Virus record (IMG/VR): IMGVR_UViG_648276671_000019
Coordinates: 1-31,646 of that record
Origin: a virus
Taxonomy: Duplodnaviria; Heunggongvirae; Uroviricota; Caudoviricetes
DNA length: 31,646 nt
Strand: one strand, 5' to 3'
Part shown: positions 8,500 to 15,387 of the stretch, piece by piece
How positions within the stretch are numbered: position 1 is the first letter of the stretch
Layout: the number at the start of each line of letters is the position of its first letter
Notes under the pieces: model-generated
Seen by the model: the letters and a program-made list of their open reading frames with translations, nothing else
Told to the model about the DNA's origin: nothing
The model's database searches: none
Translations under genes and position numbers: made by a program

Positions 8500-9099
8500 T
8501 TATGCATTAAGAAGGGTCAAAAGACGCTCACGCGCCATTCGTTCGTTAACAGCTTTCTTCAGCGCACCACTCGCCCGCGCTTCCTGCCAGGCTTTCATTG
8601 AGCGGACACCAGAGTCTGCGTCCTGATAGGCCGGATATGTCACCGGGCTGACATCATACAGACGGGAAATGCGCGTGATTTCCCGGATAACAATCCCCTC
8701 GTCGTCTTCATACCAGCTCTCTCCATCACGGGCGACGCGAAACGCGAACGAGGACTGATTAATGTCACCACGCAACATTGGTGACAGCACCAGGTCACAA
8801 ATCGTCGGCGTATCCGGTGCAACAATGTCATAACGCAAACCACGTTCATCCACCGACAATGACAACGTGCCGGCAGAACTTCGTCCGAGAATGAAATTAG
8901 GATCATGATTAAACAAGCCACGTACATCATCATTCAGTACATCATCAAAAGCCCCCGGCTTGATGATTTCACGAAATCCCCACAGAGGTTCTGAACGACT
9001 GTTAAATACCGAGCCATACCCCAGAATGTGGGTCGGAGCATTATCATATTGTTCCGCCCGCACCTCCCCGCTGTAACAGCGCGTTTCACGGTCATTCAT
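8500..9099 (-). CDS. Prohead maturation protease, HK97 family
   Basis: 199 aa between portal and capsid genes; ATG overlaps the portal stop; resembles HK97-type prohead proteases. Confidence 0.85.
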   Translation of the reverse strand: MNDRETRCYSGEVRAEQYDNAPTHILGYGSVFNSRSEPLWGFREIIKPGAFDDVLNDDVRGLFNHDPNFILGRSSAGTLSLSVDERGLRYDIVAPDTPTICDLVLSPMLRGDINQSSFAFRVARDGESWYEDDEGIVIREITRISRLYDVSPVTYPAYQDADSGVRSMKAWQEARASGALKKAVNERMARERLLTLLNA

Positions 9100-10318
9100 C
9101 GTTCTTTTCCTCTTTGCCTTTCGTATCTTTAAAGTTATTCAACGGATTTGCTGCATTTACGCTGACCAGCATTTCATCCAGACCGTCAACCGGGTTCATA
9201 TCCTCAAATGCCCTGGCTTCATTCCGGCTCATCCAGCCATCTGTAATGGCAAAGTGATAGAACTGCGCACGCTCCTGTGGGGTCCCACGGAGCAACCCCG
9301 TGAGGTTGAAACGAACGTAATACCCGGCAGCCCGTTCTGTACGGGTAAACAGGCGACGGTTAAGCTCCTGCTCCCAGTTCGCAACCCAGGGCATCATCGT
9401 GTAGCGAACAAACTGAATCGCCTGCTGCGTAATATTCGAAAATGTGGCTTTTTCCAGGTCATTAATCATGTGCGCCGGGACATTAAAAATCCCGGCAATC
9501 ATCGACCTGTTCAGCTTGGTCATATCAATGATCTGAGCATCCACCGGAGAAACTGTCAGAGCGCGGTAATCCAGTTGCGCAGGCAGCAGCATGGTTTTAT
9601 TTTCCTGGCTGCGAAGCGCTGTCACCGCCCGCTGCCACATATTTTTAAGCCTGCCCCAGCTCTGTTCGTTCAGTTCATTTTTCACAGAAATAATACCGGC
9701 AGGACGGGCATTACCGTTAAAAAAGGCGCTGGTATACTGCTGGCCACTCATTCCCATACCAATGGTTTCAGCATGCTGCATGATCGGGCTCAGTCCCATT
9801 TTCTGATTGTTTCCCAGCGCCCTGATATGGATCATGTCGTCCGGACTTACCGCAAATGCACCCTCTTCGTTATACACCCCGTAAGTATGACGCCCACCGG
9901 TGTTAAGTAACGTGGTTTCCCATGGCATACAGCATTCAAGGCTGGTAACCTCGCCACGACGATTACGTTTTACCCACGTATAACCGTTGCCCCACCCCAG
10001 CACATGACGCTGCTTCAGTTCCCGCCACTTATAGCTGGTCTGCCAGGCATTAGGTTCATCATGAACGAGCCAGAACAACGGATGATCGCGTGCCGGCTGA
10101 ACATGCTCATTCGTTTTTCGCATCACATGCAGGGGCATCTGAGCCACACTGGATGAAATAACATAAATACAGGCATAGACAGCAGCCAGCTTCATGGATG
10201 TTTCCGGACTGACATACACATCCCGGGCAAAAATATTATCCGTCTCAGCGGCCTCTCCGGTTACCGGAACCGAGGGATTTTCCAGAGGCTCACTGCGAAA
10301 CAGAGCATCAAGAAGCAT
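9092..10318 (-). CDS. Portal protein, HK97 family
   Basis: 408 aa immediately downstream of the large terminase; AGGAGAA Shine-Dalgarno; acidic C-terminus. Confidence 0.85.
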   Translation of the reverse strand: MLLDALFRSEPLENPSVPVTGEAAETDNIFARDVYVSPETSMKLAAVYACIYVISSSVAQMPLHVMRKTNEHVQPARDHPLFWLVHDEPNAWQTSYKWRELKQRHVLGWGNGYTWVKRNRRGEVTSLECCMPWETTLLNTGGRHTYGVYNEEGAFAVSPDDMIHIRALGNNQKMGLSPIMQHAETIGMGMSGQQYTSAFFNGNARPAGIISVKNELNEQSWGRLKNMWQRAVTALRSQENKTMLLPAQLDYRALTVSPVDAQIIDMTKLNRSMIAGIFNVPAHMINDLEKATFSNITQQAIQFVRYTMMPWVANWEQELNRRLFTRTERAAGYYVRFNLTGLLRGTPQERAQFYHFAITDGWMSRNEARAFEDMNPVDGLDEMLVSVNAANPLNNFKDTKGKEEKNDE

Positions 10319-10448
10319 GTTTTCTCCTCATGGACACCACCAGTGCATAAAGCAGCAACAAACAGCCAGACAGCATCAGAGACGCTGGCAGACCTGCATA
10401 CAGATAAACGCCAGCAGTGAGCAGACCGAAACCGATCAGCCCGGTCAT
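10308..10448 (-). CDS. Small hydrophobic ORF (46 aa) between terminase and portal
   Basis: ATG at 10448, translation MTGLIGFGLLTAGVYLYAGLPASLMLSGCLLLLYALVVSMRRKHAS, stop overlapping the portal start; below the ORF-track size cutoff; no strong Shine-Dalgarno. Confidence 0.3.
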   Translation of the reverse strand: MTGLIGFGLLTAGVYLYAGLPASLMLSGCLLLLYALVVSMRRKHAS

Positions 10449-10465
10449 ATCAGTAATAAGCTGTT

Positions 10466-12223
10466 TCACAGAATTAACAGGTCCTCATCAGGATCAAGCG
10501 TGGACAGAAAGTCATTCACGTCCCCGCCATTTACCAGAAAGCGGCTCATGGCCGTAAAAAGCGCAACAGGGCCGTCGATTTTGGCTTCCAGCGTGGATTT
10601 ATTCGGGAAGATATTGTCGTTTTTGTCCGGTTTTACCGTAACGTTAGACATCATCCAGTTCATGACCGGATGATTGCTGTGATGGAAACGCCCGGCATAG
10701 ACCAGTGATTCCGTTTCCTTCATGGCCTCTGACAGATTGCGAACCGTCTGCGGAACCTCCACCAGCGGTATCCCTTCTTCAGCCAGTGCCAGGCTGAACT
10801 GCATCGCGCTCCACGGGTCAAATCCCAGTTCCCTGAGGTTTTCACCACCAATCCATTCCAGTAAGTCACTTTTTATCTGAGCATGATCGATAACATCACC
10901 ATCCGTCAGAATCAGCTTATCCATCTCCGCCCACTTCCGGTAAAGTTCTGCCTGCTGCCGCGAGCATCGTTCCAGCCGTCCTTCCGGAAGCCAGAATTTA
11001 AAATCGGCATGAACATGCCCGTTATCCGTTCGCCAGAGTTTTGCCGCCGCACAGATATCAATCTTATGAGCAAGGTCAACGCCGACCCACATGGGATACG
11101 TTTTCAGCTCATGTCGTGGGGCAATGTATTCGCACTTCTCCCACTTAATCATGTCCATCCAGGCAGACTCTGCTGTTACCCACACATTCATGTGTTTGGT
11201 AAAAAAATTCACCCGCGCAGAGACCTGTTCTTTCGCTTTTTTCGCCAGGCGACGCAGATCATCCCAGCGTTTACAGATGCCCAGGCCGGGATTCGCTTTC
11301 TGCCAGACCGTTTCATCAAACGGATCATCTCCCTCATCGAGGGTGTAAATAATCGCAAAGTAGGAGTCGTCTTTTACCGCGCCCTCCACGTCGCTGTTAT
11401 AGCCACGCAATACCTTGATGGCGTAATCACGCTGCTCGTAACAAATCCCTTCCTTGTTAAACCCTGCCGTGGTGATACCAAATAAAAGGGACTGCAGACG
11501 GGCACCGGTTGCCGTTTCCAGAACGTCCCACACGTCACGGGTTTTATGTGCATGCAGCTCATCAATAATGGCGCAGTGGATGTTCAGACCATCCAGGTTG
11601 TTTGCATCCGAAGAAAGCGGTTCAAATTTTGATGCGCTCTGCTCCTGGTAAATCGCCAGCTTGTTGAAATCAAACAACCGCCCGAGTGTCGACCGGGCTT
11701 TTCTGACCATATTTTTGGCGTCTTCAAACACGATTCTGGCCTGGTCACGCGTGGTTGCGGCTGAATACACCTCAGCTCCGCCTTCACCATCTGCCCCCGT
11801 CATATACAGGCCGATACCCGATGACAGGGTTGATTTTGCGTTTTTACGGGCGACTTCGTTGTACGCCGTCCGGAACCGGCGCACCATCACCGGGCGTCCG
11901 CTGCCATCGCTGCGCATGACAACTTCCCCGGTCTCTTCATTGACCAGCGGAATGACAAAACCAAAAATATTAATCAGGATAAATACATGCCAGTCCATCA
12001 ACTCAATGGGCTGGCCTGCCAGCGCCCCTTTCACATGGGGCACAAATTTGTAGAAATTCAGGATGTGCTGCGCACGGGGTTCACTGAAATAAATCCCCCG
12101 CTCTTCGCCGTACTTCAGATCATCAAGAAAACGCTGGCAGGCCAGACGGACAAATTCGCCAGCAACAATTTCTCCTGCAACAACACGTTCGGCGTAGCGG
12201 ATCCCGTCAGCCACTTTTGCCAT
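10466..12223 (-). CDS. Terminase large subunit
   Basis: 585 aa; N-terminal ATPase and C-terminal nuclease layout; ATGA-coupled to the small subunit. Confidence 0.9.
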   Translation of the reverse strand: MAKVADGIRYAERVVAGEIVAGEFVRLACQRFLDDLKYGEERGIYFSEPRAQHILNFYKFVPHVKGALAGQPIELMDWHVFILINIFGFVIPLVNEETGEVVMRSDGSGRPVMVRRFRTAYNEVARKNAKSTLSSGIGLYMTGADGEGGAEVYSAATTRDQARIVFEDAKNMVRKARSTLGRLFDFNKLAIYQEQSASKFEPLSSDANNLDGLNIHCAIIDELHAHKTRDVWDVLETATGARLQSLLFGITTAGFNKEGICYEQRDYAIKVLRGYNSDVEGAVKDDSYFAIIYTLDEGDDPFDETVWQKANPGLGICKRWDDLRRLAKKAKEQVSARVNFFTKHMNVWVTAESAWMDMIKWEKCEYIAPRHELKTYPMWVGVDLAHKIDICAAAKLWRTDNGHVHADFKFWLPEGRLERCSRQQAELYRKWAEMDKLILTDGDVIDHAQIKSDLLEWIGGENLRELGFDPWSAMQFSLALAEEGIPLVEVPQTVRNLSEAMKETESLVYAGRFHHSNHPVMNWMMSNVTVKPDKNDNIFPNKSTLEAKIDGPVALFTAMSRFLVNGGDVNDFLSTLDPDEDLLIL

Positions 12224-13245: not shown

Positions 13246-13710
13246 CTACTTAATGCACTGAGTGCGGATATACTCCTGTGCCCCTTCCAGTTGCATCTGC
13301 ATCGTCATCAGCCGCTCTCTGAGGGTGAAATAATCCCGTTCAGCGGTGTCTTCCAGTCGGGGGCTGGTTGCATTATCCACGCCGGAGGCGGTGGTGGCTT
13401 CACGCACTGACTGACAGACTGCTTTGATGTGCAACCGACGACGACCAGCGGCAACATCAGCGCGCAGAGTTTCATTTTCAGCTTTCGCATTGGCTAATTC
13501 TCTCGAGTACTTTGCATCGAGAGCAGCAACATCACGCTGACGCTGCTGCATGTCAGCGATGGTGGCGATCGCCTGCTTCAGCTCACTGACTTTTTTATCA
13601 CGCTGTTCTTTGTAGGCGATGGCGTTATCACGGTAATGATTGACCGCCCACGACAGGCAGACGATGATGCAGATAACCAGAGCATAAATAATCGCGGCGA
13701 CTCTGCTCAC
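13246..13710 (-). CDS. Rz: Spanin, inner-membrane subunit (Rz)
   Basis: Translation closely resembles lambda Rz; probable GTG start at 13710 overlapping the endolysin stop (GTGA), the ORF-track start at 13725 being TTG. Confidence 0.85.
13308..13490 (-). CDS. Rz1: Spanin, outer-membrane lipoprotein subunit (Rz1), nested in Rz
   Basis: 60-aa ORF in the +1 frame inside Rz with lipobox LVVVGC and a PPPPP stretch; near-identical to lambda Rz1 as I recall it. Confidence 0.85.
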
Positions 13711-14240
13711 TGATCTATCCCCCAACAGGCTAATGCGCTTTCCTGGTCACGACGAATAACCTGTCCATAGCAGTTATTTGAACGTATGCGGCAATCGCGC
13801 CCACCATCTTTTATCCACCAGCGAATCGCCTCGCATGCACCTTTACGATCACCAGCATTCAGCCGCTTATAAAACGTCGACGGAAAACACTTACCGGGGC
13901 CAATGTTATAGGGACAAAATGACGCGATACCCGCTTTTTGTGGTTCGGTCAGTGGTACTTTAAGATTGCGCTCCACCCATGCCAGCGCCTTATCACGCTC
14001 AATGGCGTTGACCTGGTCGCATTTTTCCTTCGACAGTTTCATACCGGGAAAAACGGGTTTTCCATCCACCATCGTGGCACCCCGACAGATGGTCCAGATG
14101 CCGGACCCATCGCGGTATGCCGTTGTGTGGTTACCTTCTTTTTCATCCAGAAACTGGTCGAGAATATCAGGCGCGGGCGCACCGACGGCAATCAGTGCCA
14201 GAACGGCAGCCGACAGGCCGTATCTGATTTTTGCGTTCAT
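13707..14240 (-). CDS. Endolysin (T4-lysozyme-like), probably SAR type
   Basis: E-x8-D-x5-T catalytic triad ([20 protein letters not shown]); N-terminal weakly hydrophobic Gly/Ala-rich segment [17 protein letters not shown] consistent with a signal-anchor-release domain. Confidence 0.8.
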
Positions 14241-14658: not shown

Positions 14659-14874
14659 TTACTCTCCCCGTGCAGCCTTACGCTTGTCTTCTCTGATTTT
14701 GAAGTACAGATTTGTCAGATAAGTCAGGAAGCCCAGAACCAGACTCCCCAGTACACCAATCGCAGCCCACTGTGACGGACTGACCTGATCAAGCCACTGT
14801 AAAAACCAGTAGCCAGCACTGCCTGCGGAGGTGCCGTAGGCAATGCCCGTTGAAATTTTATCCATGGATTTCAT
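14659..14874 (-). CDS. Holin, phage 21 S-like (pinholin) with dual-start motif
   Basis: 71 aa, [26 protein letters not shown] matches the S21 holin family; Met1-Lys-Ser-Met4 gives antiholin and holin starts; GGAGGTGAGG Shine-Dalgarno. Confidence 0.85.
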
Positions 14875-15157: not shown

Positions 15158-15232
<75 letters not shown>

Positions 15233-15233
15233 A

Positions 15234-15310
15234 TGGTCCGTCACCGAGGACTCGAACCCCGCACCATCAACTTAGAAGGTTGATGCTCTATCCCGATGAG
15301 CTAGTGACGG
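15234..15310 (-). tRNA. tRNA-Arg (anticodon UCU)
   Basis: Acceptor CCGTCAC/GTGACGG, anticodon stem TCAAC/GTTGA with loop CTTCTAA, T-loop TTCGAGT, 3' ACCA; 1 nt from the neighbouring tRNAs. Confidence 0.8.
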
Positions 15311-15311
15311 T

Positions 15312-15387
15312 TGGTGGCCCTTGCTGGACTTGAACCAGCGACCTGGCGATTATAACTCGCTCTCATCATTTAGCTAAAATGGCAGGG
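15312..15387 (-). pseudogene. Degenerate tRNA-Ile-like gene (ileX-like 3' half, anticodon loop GTTATAA)
   Basis: 3' half (TCGCC AGGTC GCTGG TTCAAGT CCAGC AAGGGCC A CCA) is nearly identical to E. coli ileX as I recall it; the 5' acceptor strand and D-arm do not pair properly. Confidence 0.35.

What the first reader, a model, noticed from the sequence alone, without database searches (positions are those of the whole stretch)
10308..10448. Small hydrophobic ORFs below the ORF-track size cutoff at 10308-10448, 24973-25071 and 29821-29904
All three have in-frame ATG starts and hydrophobic translations, and two are translationally coupled to neighbours; the 27-aa one at 29821 has a strong AGGAGGTGA ribosome-binding site. 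Short membrane peptides in prophages can be toxins or Kil-like factors and are usually missed by annotation.
Basis: seen in the sequence. Interest (0 to 1): 0.35.

Follow-up and report, generated by a model that had tools for sequence, protein, structure and literature searches.

The report
Three real small prophage genes
The three tiny reading frames are genuine, conserved small genes of an E. coli-type lambdoid prophage: a 53-residue two-helix membrane protein tied to the portal gene, a 32-residue basic peptide, and a 27-residue single-helix membrane peptide that annotation nearly always misses. Nothing shows that any of them is a toxin.

Summary
All three ORFs exist at the stated coordinates and are conserved beyond chance.

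- **ORF1** lies on the minus strand. It most likely starts at GTG 10469 (53 aa), not ATG 10448. It matches phrog_7105 over its full length and RefSeq routinely annotates it. It is predicted to be a two-helix membrane hairpin, overlaps the TerL stop and the portal start, and is inherited with the portal type rather than with TerL. It is absent from many related modules, so it is accessory.
- **ORF2** (32 aa) kept its frame in 51 of 52 relatives, in two divergent allelic types separated by many synonymous codon switches. It always sits 3 nt before the same 119-aa gene. It is not reliably hydrophobic.
- **ORF3** (27 aa) is essentially one transmembrane helix, with invariant W3, G11xxxA15 and W26. 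It moves as a ~100-bp cassette together with its Shine-Dalgarno site. It occurs in about 20% of complete E. coli genomes, including the VT2-Sakai Stx2 phage directly upstream of hokW/sokW, and is almost never annotated.

None of the three matches a Kil, Hok-type, holin or defence family, and none has its own promoter, terminator or antisense RNA. The toxin/Kil reading is untested. All three functions remain inferred.

The parts
10308..10469 (-). ORF1, 53 aa from GTG 10469 (MKQLITDMTGLIGFGLLTAGVYLYAGLPASLMLSGCLLLLYALVVSMRRKHAS). Predicted two-helix membrane hairpin.
   Evidence: Searches give the frame. phrog_7105 matches residues 1-52 of 52 at E=9e-20. RefSeq annotates the 53-aa product WP_000811487.1. 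Relatives at 43-62% identity align from residue 1, with G13, G20, Y22, L23, G26, L31 and G35 invariant. They start with ATGA or GTGA at the TerL stop. AlphaFold2 gives helices 2-25 and 27-52 at pLDDT 87.
10466..12223 (-). Terminase large subunit (TerL). Its stop codon overlaps the ORF1 GTG start (GTGA).
   Evidence: Homologues carry the TerL_ATPase and TerL_nuclease Pfam domains.
9092..10318 (-). Portal protein. Its ATG and Shine-Dalgarno (GAGGAG) lie inside the 3' end of ORF1, with an 11-nt overlap.
   Evidence: The same 11-nt overlap is found in L144, L145, L149, L150 and L271.
24973..25071 (+). ORF2, 32 aa (MKNKSAYKTALLMASAGYWSIAILYLRKAYGK): a small basic protein with a moderately hydrophobic centre.
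   Evidence: One search gives the frame. It is intact in 51 of 52 IMG/VR loci, in two allelic types. Type A and type B share 19 of 32 residues but only 9 identical codons, with 11 synonymous codon switches. Variants are deposited as hypothetical proteins (OSK45455.1, A0A377HDU0).
24962..24969 (+). Shine-Dalgarno-like GGTGGTGA upstream of ORF2.
   Evidence: Read. It is kept in most type-A relatives. Type-B relatives mostly have AGGAGG 7 nt before their ATG.
25075..25434 (+). 119-aa gene of unknown function (phrog_1737), always preceded by ORF2 with a 3-nt spacer.
29821..29904 (+). ORF3, 27 aa (MNWSDVIVTLGMVFAVAFVVYSICRWG): a single transmembrane helix with Trp at both ends and a G11xxxA15 motif.
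   Evidence: One search gives the frame. It is always 27 codons, with no indels, in 12 of 13 distinct DNA variants. There are 119 or more IMG/VR loci with 30 peptide variants. It is present in 1062 of 5426 complete E. coli genomes and in VT2-Sakai.
29808..29816 (+). Strong Shine-Dalgarno AGGAGGTGA for ORF3. It is part of the conserved cassette.
   Evidence: Homology with relatives that have a different upstream gene begins at this site.
29249..29824 (+). DUF551 gene. Its stop overlaps the ORF3 ATG (ATGA).
29909..30151 (+). DUF4222 gene, starting 4 nt after the ORF3 stop.

Best explanation
The three frames are genuine small protein-coding genes. Each is translated as an internal cistron of a prophage operon, not as a stand-alone toxin cassette.

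**ORF1.** The true model is 53 aa from GTG 10469 on the minus strand.
- Shown: it sits in the late head-gene block and overlaps the TerL stop (GTGA) and the portal start (11 nt). It is predicted to be a two-helix hairpin. It is co-inherited with the portal type rather than with TerL. It is absent from many related modules.
- Inferred: it is made by termination-reinitiation at the TerL stop. It inserts into the inner membrane with both ends in the cytoplasm (K2 at the N-terminus, RRKH at the C-terminus). It most likely acts at the membrane in a portal- or prohead-linked late step, roughly as T4 gp40 does for the gp20 portal (that comparison is from my own knowledge).

**ORF3.** 27 aa, in the early-left operon that reads from the repressor side towards xis/int.
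- Shown: it has a strong Shine-Dalgarno site and is almost entirely one transmembrane helix, with W3 and W26 at the two ends and an invariant G11xxxA15 small-xxx-small face.
- Inferred: it is produced on induction or infection and lies N-out, C-in. It works by helix-helix packing inside the membrane, either with itself or with a host or phage membrane protein, as a host-takeover modulator.

**ORF2.** 32 aa.
- Shown: it is a conserved basic small protein always placed 3 nt upstream of the same 119-aa gene (phrog_1737).
- Inferred: it works together with that protein. It is not a dedicated membrane peptide.
For: **Context.** The window is a lambdoid prophage with an HK97/P27-type head module.

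**ORF1**
- phrog_7105 matches over its full length at E=9e-20, and RefSeq annotates the gene.
- An exhaustive HMMER search found about 53-aa relatives at 43-62% identity that align from residue 1.
- Five of six distant relatives lie between TerL and a Phage_portal gene, four of them with the same 4-nt and 11-nt overlaps. The sixth sits after TerL and before a cut gene that was not scored. The cultured Edwardsiella phage EPP-1 has the same arrangement.
- Relatives use ATGA or GTGA starts at the TerL stop.
- AlphaFold2 predicts two helices at pLDDT 87.
- Linkage to the portal: L149, L150 and L271 have TerL 36-38% identical but portal 70-81% identical, and carry the same small-protein type. L270 has TerL 97% identical but portal 30% identical, and carries a different 60-aa two-helix protein (phrog_502).

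**ORF2**
- The frame is intact in 51 of 52 loci.
- Type A against type B shows 11 synonymous codon switches, including AGA/CGT for Arg and CTG/TTA for Leu.
- Nearly all type-B copies carry an AGGAGG Shine-Dalgarno site.

**ORF3**
- It is always 27 codons across 21-28 substitutions in 78 nt, with no indels.
- For each divergent lineage, the chance of keeping an open frame and an apolar core under random substitution is 0.006-0.08.
- Homology blocks start at the Shine-Dalgarno site and end at the stop codon, while both flanking genes vary: DUF4222, mokW/hokW or other genes downstream.
- It is present in 1062 of 5426 complete E. coli genomes.

**All three**
- No promoter-like or terminator-like sites on the coding strand.
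- No Rfam RNA apart from tRNAs.
Against: - There is no expression, localisation or phenotype data for any of the three. Every function is inferred.
- ORF3's pN/pS is only 0.68, against 0.85-0.87 in the two other frames. That is weak, as expected for a permissive hydrophobic helix.
- One frameshifted copy each was seen for ORF2 (L011) and ORF3 (L110), both in G runs.
- ORF1 is absent from 34-36 of about 60 TerL-related modules, where TerL abuts the portal directly. It cannot be essential for head assembly.
- Adjacency alone would produce some linkage between ORF1 and the portal.
- L147 pairs the ORF1 type with an unrelated portal.
- ORF2 type B is not hydrophobic (best 17-residue window 0.85).
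Confidence: 0.75

Rival explanations
1. One reading: ORF3, and perhaps ORF2, are Kil-like or toxin-like peptides that damage the membrane or block division when expressed from the induced prophage.
For: ORF3 is a 27-aa, almost purely hydrophobic peptide, similar in size to known small membrane toxins (my own knowledge). It and ORF2 lie in the early-left operon, the region where lambda kil lies (my own knowledge). In VT2-Sakai and many other loci the ORF3 homologue sits directly upstream of hokW/sokW, and HokW is made on mitomycin C induction (PMC8621323).
Against: No Pfam, NCBIfam, PHROG or PADLOC family matches either peptide. There is no antisense RNA or promoter of their own. ORF3 has a strong Shine-Dalgarno site and ATGA coupling, the opposite of the occluded translation start of type I toxins. 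ORF2 type B is not hydrophobic. Its conserved end motifs and the GxxxA face suggest specific helix packing rather than generic membrane damage, though this is an inference.
Confidence: 0.2
2. ORF1 is a moron-like accessory membrane protein unrelated to the portal. It would be, for example, a late-expressed modulator of lysis timing or a superinfection-exclusion factor that merely occupies a permissive slot at a module junction.
For: ORF1 shows presence/absence polymorphism among closely related TerL modules. PHROG files the related phrog_502 under 'moron, auxiliary metabolic gene and host takeover'. Its two transmembrane segments and basic C-terminal tail resemble a miniature class II holin.
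Against: It has no promoter or terminator of its own. It overlaps both neighbouring genes. It is inherited with the portal type across TerL swaps. The phage already has an S21-type holin, an Rz and an Rz1 in its lysis cassette. ORF1 matches no holin family.
Confidence: 0.35
3. The frames are chance ORFs, or are conserved only because of overlapping nucleic-acid signals such as ribosome-binding sites of the downstream genes or RNA structure.
For: The window holds 145 ATG-initiated ORFs of 25-60 aa. The last codons of ORF1, ORF2 and ORF3 overlap the Shine-Dalgarno regions of the next genes. ORF3's pN/pS is not low.
Against: ORF3 is conserved with its C-terminus intact where the downstream gene is different (VT2-Sakai). 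ORF2 alleles differ by many synonymous codon switches. ORF1 relatives at 43-62% identity keep their length, their glycine pattern and their position. There is no Rfam hit, and the RNA upstream of ORF2 folds no better than shuffled sequence (z = -1.1).
Confidence: 0.04

Closest known systems
PHROG families phrog_7105 and phrog_502 (small phage 'membrane proteins' of unknown function)
   Same: ORF1 matches phrog_7105 end to end (E=9e-20) and phrog_502 more weakly (E=1e-6). Members are 50-61 aa, have two hydrophobic segments, and lie between TerL and the portal.
   Different: The families have no described function. This work adds the corrected GTG start, the linkage to portal type and the accessory (present/absent) distribution.
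T4 gp40, the membrane-bound factor for gp20 portal/prohead initiation (my own knowledge)
   Same: It is a precedent for a phage membrane protein acting with the portal at the inner membrane. ORF1 is translationally coupled to the portal gene and co-inherited with it.
   Different: There is no sequence relationship. No T4 gp40 family appeared in the Pfam or PHROG scans. ORF1 is far smaller and dispensable in many related modules. The analogy is functional only and untested.
Lambda Kil, Rac KilR and Qin DicB (prophage 'kil' factors)
   Same: They are small proteins encoded in early operons of lambdoid prophages. ORF2 and ORF3 lie in the corresponding early-left operon.
   Different: No family match was found. 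To my knowledge the known Kil factors are soluble division inhibitors, not bare transmembrane helices. ORF1 is in the late operon.
Hok/Gef-type and other type I membrane toxins
   Same: ORF3 is a very short hydrophobic peptide. Its homologue lies about 150 nt upstream of mokW/hokW in VT2-Sakai.
   Different: There is no Hok or other toxin family hit, no antisense RNA and no promoter of its own. ORF3 has a strong exposed Shine-Dalgarno site with ATGA coupling. It is a separate cistron from hokW.
Class II holins and pinholins (S21 type)
   Same: ORF1 has two transmembrane segments, a predicted N-in/C-in topology and a basic C-terminal tail.
   Different: There is no holin family match. It is not next to the endolysin. 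The prophage has its own S21-type holin at 14659-14874.
Small bacterial inner-membrane regulators such as AcrZ, MgrB and MgtS (my own knowledge)
   Same: Like ORF3, these are single-helix proteins of roughly 30-50 aa that act by binding a larger membrane protein. This is the mode of action I infer from ORF3's invariant GxxxA face.
   Different: There is no sequence similarity. No partner for ORF3 is known. ORF3 is phage-borne and restricted to Escherichia/Shigella.

Membership tests
phrog_7105 (ORF1) | Full-length profile match | tested here: met
   E=9.4e-20, residues 1-52 on profile positions 1-52 of 52. Edwardsiella phage EPP-1's homologue scores E=1.2e-22.
phrog_7105 (ORF1) | About 50-55 aa with two hydrophobic helices and a conserved glycine pattern | tested here: met
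   Alignment A3 has G13, G20, Y22, L23, G26, L31 and G35 invariant. AlphaFold2 gives helices 2-25 and 27-52.
phrog_7105 (ORF1) | Position between TerL and the portal, overlapping the TerL stop | tested here: met
   All six distant relatives sit at or overlapping the TerL stop. Five of them are followed by a Phage_portal gene; in the sixth (L148) the next gene is cut and was not scored. EPP-1 has the same arrangement.
phrog_502 'membrane protein' (ORF1) | Profile match | tested here: inconclusive
   ORF1 scores E=1.3e-6, much weaker than its phrog_7105 match. The true phrog_502 member in L270 scores E=1.6e-27 and only 0.015 against phrog_7105. The two look like related sister families.
Kil-like prophage factors (lambda Kil, KilR, DicB) | Sequence membership in a known Kil family | tested here: not met
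   Pfam-A at E<=1 returned no family for any of the three peptides. NCBIfam gave only sub-threshold noise.
Kil-like prophage factors (lambda Kil, KilR, DicB) | Growth or division arrest on expression | not testable with these tools
   This needs induced expression in E. coli.
Type I toxin-antitoxin (Hok/Gef-like) | Own promoter plus an overlapping antisense RNA | tested here: not met
   No promoter-like sites were found in 29400-30600 or on the ORF2 strand upstream of ORF2. Rfam found no sok-like or other RNA.
Type I toxin-antitoxin (Hok/Gef-like) | Toxin family match | tested here: not met
   No Pfam hit.
Type I toxin-antitoxin (Hok/Gef-like) | Short hydrophobic peptide | tested here: met
   ORF3's best 17-residue Kyte-Doolittle window is 2.45. 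This is resemblance only.
Class II holin (ORF1) | Holin family match and a position in the lysis cassette | tested here: not met
   ORF1 has no Pfam hit. The S21-type holin is at 14659-14874, with Rz and Rz1 at 13246-13725.
Moron | Own promoter and terminator flanking the gene | tested here: not met
   No terminator-like sites and no coding-strand promoter-like sites were found around any of the three ORFs. ORF1 and ORF3 overlap neighbouring genes.
Moron | Presence/absence polymorphism among otherwise related phages | tested here: met
   For ORF1, about 24 loci have a small two-segment ORF and 34-36 have TerL abutting the portal. For ORF3, DUF551 genes are often followed directly by other genes.
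Known anti-phage defence proteins (PADLOC) | Profile match | tested here: not met
   No hits at E<=1 for five peptides.

The most novel reading that the evidence does not exclude
ORF3 defines an unrecognised family of 27-residue single-helix membrane peptides: M-x-W-P-[DE]...G-x-x-x-A...Y-S-I-C-R-W-G. It is carried as a self-contained ~100-bp cassette by about one in five complete E. coli genomes, including Stx2-converting phages of the VT2-Sakai (Sp5) type and ~100-kb plasmids. On this reading it is made on prophage induction and acts inside the membrane on a specific host or phage membrane protein, changing the outcome of induction (killing, lysis timing or phage release). A second possibility is that the ORF1-type hairpins are membrane partners of particular portal lineages. 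That would imply membrane-associated prohead initiation in HK97/P27-like siphophages.
Probability: 0.2. Interest if true: 0.6.

Novelty: new member of a known kind. Interest (0 to 1): 0.35.

Why it matters
Small phage proteins are systematically under-annotated. Here, two of three candidates are conserved genes that standard pipelines skip.

ORF3 is at 84 nt below common length cut-offs. The shortest entries I saw in the Sakai Ribo-seq catalogue were 93 bp (PMC5597208, S2 Table). It is nevertheless widespread in pathogenic E. coli prophages and sits next to the hokW/sokW locus, which affects Sp5 phage release (PMC8621323). It is a cheap, well-defined target for functional tests.

ORF1's linkage to portal type gives a concrete, testable hypothesis for a recurrent but unexplained small membrane gene in head-gene blocks.

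None of this changes current understanding unless a function is demonstrated.

Tried and rejected
- The search for homologous proteins rejected the 32-aa and 27-aa peptides because its minimum is 40 aa. I replaced it with an exact-sequence look-up and DNA-based comparisons.
- **Literature.** Full-text searches for the peptide strings found nothing. The supplements of Huecker 2017 and of 'The Cryptic Bacterial Microproteome' do not contain the peptides either. Searches for a described small membrane protein between terminase and portal, and for DUF4222, gave nothing relevant.
- **Family libraries.** Pfam, NCBIfam and PADLOC gave no meaningful hits for any peptide. ORF2's only PHROG hit (phrog_2180, E=0.033) was discarded as noise.
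- **dN/dS for ORF3.** This was not decisive: 0.68 against 0.85-0.87 in the off-frames. I relied instead on indel-free length conservation, an apolar-core simulation and the cassette boundaries.
- **RNA rivals.** Rfam found only tRNAs. The hairpin-like ACGGCCTCTGGCCGT upstream of ORF2 is not significantly structured (z = -1.1) and was not called a terminator.
- **ORF1 as an essential head gene.** Rejected because many related modules lack it.
- **ORF1 fused into the portal N-terminus in modules that lack it.** Rejected because those N-termini are polar.
- **Four 'hydrophobic ORF' hits in the TerL survey.** L312, L324, L333 and L336 were discounted because they start 75-346 nt past the TerL stop. 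Three of them overlap the portal ORF, and L324 is a 31-aa ORF in an intergenic gap.
- **Taxonomic range of ORF3.** The genome contigs pattern scan found it only in Escherichia and Shigella, plus two contigs under 450 bp in unrelated genera that look like contamination. The pattern itself forces the conserved residues, so more distant relatives would be missed.
Full report
**Observation**

- ORF1 is on the minus strand. That GTG overlaps the TerL stop as GTGA, and the ORF1 stop lies 11 nt inside the portal gene (ATG 10318).
- ORF2 (24973-25071, 32 aa) ends 3 nt before the next gene's ATG.
- ORF3 (29821-29904, 27 aa) has AGGAGGTGA at 29808-29816. It overlaps the DUF551 stop as ATGA and ends 4 nt before the DUF4222 ATG.

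The window contains 145 ATG-initiated ORFs of 25-60 aa, so existence alone proves nothing. By the best 17-residue Kyte-Doolittle window, ORF3 ranks first (2.45) and ORF1 is in the top three (2.34). ORF2 is unremarkable (1.64; 16 of 145 score as high or higher).

**Context**

The window is a lambdoid prophage.

- The minus strand carries an HK97/P27-type late block: tape measure, major capsid protein, S78 protease, portal, TerL, TerS and HNH. It also carries an S21-type holin, a lysozyme, and Rz with Rz1 embedded.
- The plus strand carries a LexA-like repressor followed by an early-left operon. That operon runs through HTH, SPFH, ORF6N, Ea22 and DUF551 genes, then DUF4222, and on to the integrase.

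**ORF1**

It is a known, annotated family.

- RefSeq annotates the 53-aa product (WP_000811487.1) in E. coli prophages that are 98-99% identical here.
- The exact sequence occurs on at least 1000 contigs as a 'MULTISPECIES hypothetical protein'. A 46-aa version is labelled 'putative membrane protein'.
- It matches phrog_7105 end to end (E=9e-20), and phrog_502 ('membrane protein') and phrog_4810 more weakly.

Distant relatives keep the start, the length and the position.

- An exhaustive HMMER search found about 53-aa relatives at 43-62% identity. They align from residue 1, with G13, G20, Y22, L23, G26, L31 and G35 invariant.
- All six relatives I looked up sit at or overlapping the TerL stop. 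Five are followed by a Phage_portal gene, four of them with the same 4-nt and 11-nt overlaps. In the sixth the downstream gene is cut and was not scored.
- The cultured Edwardsiella phage EPP-1 has the same arrangement.
- Five relatives start with ATGA and one with GTGA at the position of the window's GTG. This supports the 53-aa gene model.
- AlphaFold2 predicts helices 2-25 and 27-52, broken at G26, with mean pLDDT 87.

Two results bear on its role.

- *It is accessory.* I surveyed 80 IMG/VR loci with TerL relatives. About 24 have a 50-67-aa ORF with two hydrophobic segments between TerL and the portal, in several sequence types. Another 34-36 have TerL abutting the portal with no such gene. 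That group includes TerL proteins 74-87% identical to this one, and their portal N-termini are polar.
- *It travels with the portal, not with TerL*.

| Locus | TerL identity | Portal identity | Small gene |
|---|---|---|---|
| L149, L150, L271 | 36-38% | 70-81% | phrog_7105 type |
| L270 | 97% | 30% | different 60-aa two-helix protein (phrog_502, E=1.6e-27) |
| L291, L294, L303 | 74-87% | 25-27% | none |
| L147 (exception) | 36% | 27% | phrog_7105 type |

The last ~18 residues of TerL switch together with the portal type. The small gene therefore lies inside a co-inherited block: TerL tail, small membrane protein, portal.

**ORF2**

- In 52 IMG/VR loci found through the downstream 119-aa gene (phrog_1737), a small ORF always precedes that gene with the same 3-nt spacer. 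It is intact in 51. L011 has one extra G in a G run.
- Two allelic types exist. Type A is 32 aa: MKN[KR][SN]AYKTALLMA..GYWS[VI]A[IV]L[FY]L[RK]KAYGK. Type B is 37 aa: MTFIKNMASHKTACLIAQYGENYMHIACLFLRKAYGK. Nearly all type-B copies have an AGGAGG Shine-Dalgarno site.
- When aligned, the two types share 19 of 32 residues but only 9 identical codons. There are 11 synonymous codon switches, including AGA/CGT for Arg and CTG/TTA for Leu. That is a coding signature.
- Type B has Q, E, N and H in its middle segment (best 17-residue window 0.85). The family is therefore not a dependable transmembrane peptide.
- It is unannotated in the RefSeq relative I opened. Variants are deposited as hypothetical proteins (OSK45455.1; A0A377HDU0, seen on 1000 or more contigs).

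**ORF3**

- In 80 loci found through DUF4222, plus E. coli and phage hits, there were 13 distinct DNA variants. Twelve are intact and all of those are exactly 27 codons. L110 has one extra G in a G run.
- Divergent lineages differ at 21-28 of 78 positions with no indels. They keep M1, W3, [DE]5, G11, A15, S22 and W26, and a fully apolar core.
- Under random substitution with the same numbers of transitions and transversions, keeping an open frame and an equally apolar core has probability 0.006-0.08 per lineage.
- pN/pS is only 0.68, against 0.85-0.87 in the other frames. That is weak support on its own.
- Homology with relatives that have a different upstream gene begins at the Shine-Dalgarno site.
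- In VT2-Sakai the cassette (MTWPEAFANVGTVMAVVLVVYSICRWR) again overlaps the upstream stop as ATGA. There it is followed by sokW/mokW/hokW instead of DUF4222.
- A pattern scan found 119 or more IMG/VR loci with 30 peptide variants. The upstream gene is mostly DUF551. The downstream gene is DUF4222 (40 loci), mokW (43) or another gene.
- blastn finds the cassette in 1062 of 5426 complete E. coli genomes, at 1265 places, of which 113 are on plasmids.
- In a one-genome-per-species collection the pattern hits only Escherichia and Shigella.
- It is unannotated in all but one of the records I opened. The exception is a 40-aa N-extended RefSeq call (WP_255625547.1), and there are a few submitter calls.

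**Mechanism: what is shown and what is inferred**

Shown:
- All three are internal cistrons. They have no promoter-like or terminator-like sites on their strand and no Rfam RNA.
- They have overlap or near-overlap geometry typical of translational coupling.

Inferred:
- ORF1 is made late, by reinitiation at the TerL stop. It inserts as an N-in/C-in hairpin and acts in a portal- or prohead-linked step at the membrane. I give this about 40%, against about 35% for an unrelated late membrane accessory.
- ORF3 is made on induction from the early-left operon. It spans the bilayer with Trp at both interfaces and uses its invariant GxxxA face for helix packing with itself or with a partner.
- ORF2 works with the 119-aa protein it always precedes.

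**Comparison with known systems**

- ORF1 is a member of phrog_7105, whose function is unknown.
- None of the three belongs to a Kil, Hok-type, holin or defence family.
- The type I toxin hallmarks are absent.
- The moron definition (own promoter and terminator) is not met, although ORF1 and ORF3 show moron-like presence/absence polymorphism.

**Verdict**

The toxin/Kil interpretation is unsupported but not excluded for ORF3. Overall this is ordinary small-gene content of a prophage, with one moderately interesting item: the ORF3 cassette is widespread, almost unannotated, and adjacent to hokW in Stx2 phages.

Noticed in passing
window 10466-10525 (TerL 3' end); L270, L291: The last ~18 residues of TerL change together with the portal type, while the rest of TerL stays 87-97% identical. 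A mosaic junction therefore lies just inside the TerL 3' end, upstream of the small gene.
   Followed up: partly
L138 2516-2599 (VT2-Sakai NC_000902.1 57867-57950, minus strand): An unannotated 27-aa ORF3 homologue lies directly upstream of the sokW/mokW/hokW type I toxin-antitoxin locus of the VT2-Sakai Stx2 phage (Sp5). The same arrangement occurs in 43 of 119 IMG/VR loci.
   Followed up: partly
window 13308-13490 (-) inside 13246-13725 (-): An Rz1 lipoprotein gene (Pfam Rz1, E=2e-19) is embedded out of frame in the Rz gene.
   Followed up: yes
window 30155-30301 (+): A 48-aa non-hydrophobic ORF lies between DUF4222 and the excisionase-like gene. Relatives annotate it as a hypothetical protein (147 nt). 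It has no Pfam match.
   Followed up: partly
window 26294-27306 (+): A 62-aa 'membrane protein' (phrog_1130) overlaps by 4 nt the start of an SPFH/Band 7 domain gene in the early-left operon. This looks like a small membrane protein plus SPFH pair carried by the phage.
   Followed up: no
window 15158-15383 (-): A tRNA cluster lies upstream of the lysis genes: tRNA-Gly(tcc) and tRNA-Arg(tct). A third, weak tRNA-like hit (Rfam 31 bits at 15315-15383) is not called by ARAGORN and may be degenerate.
   Followed up: no
L360 1516-1599 (plasmid NZ_CP142951.1) and 112 other plasmid places: ORF3-family cassettes also occur on ~87-100-kb E. coli plasmids. There the peptide ends in RWW and again follows a DUF551 gene. 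These may be phage-plasmids.
   Followed up: no
L011 (ORF2) and L110 (ORF3): The only disrupted copies seen each carry a single extra G in a G run. Sequencing error and a real frameshift cannot be told apart.
   Followed up: no
window 24925-24939 (+): The inverted repeat ACGGCC-TCT-GGCCGT lies between the 63-aa gene and ORF2 and is partly conserved in type-A relatives. It is not called a terminator, and the region folds no better than shuffled sequence.
   Followed up: partly
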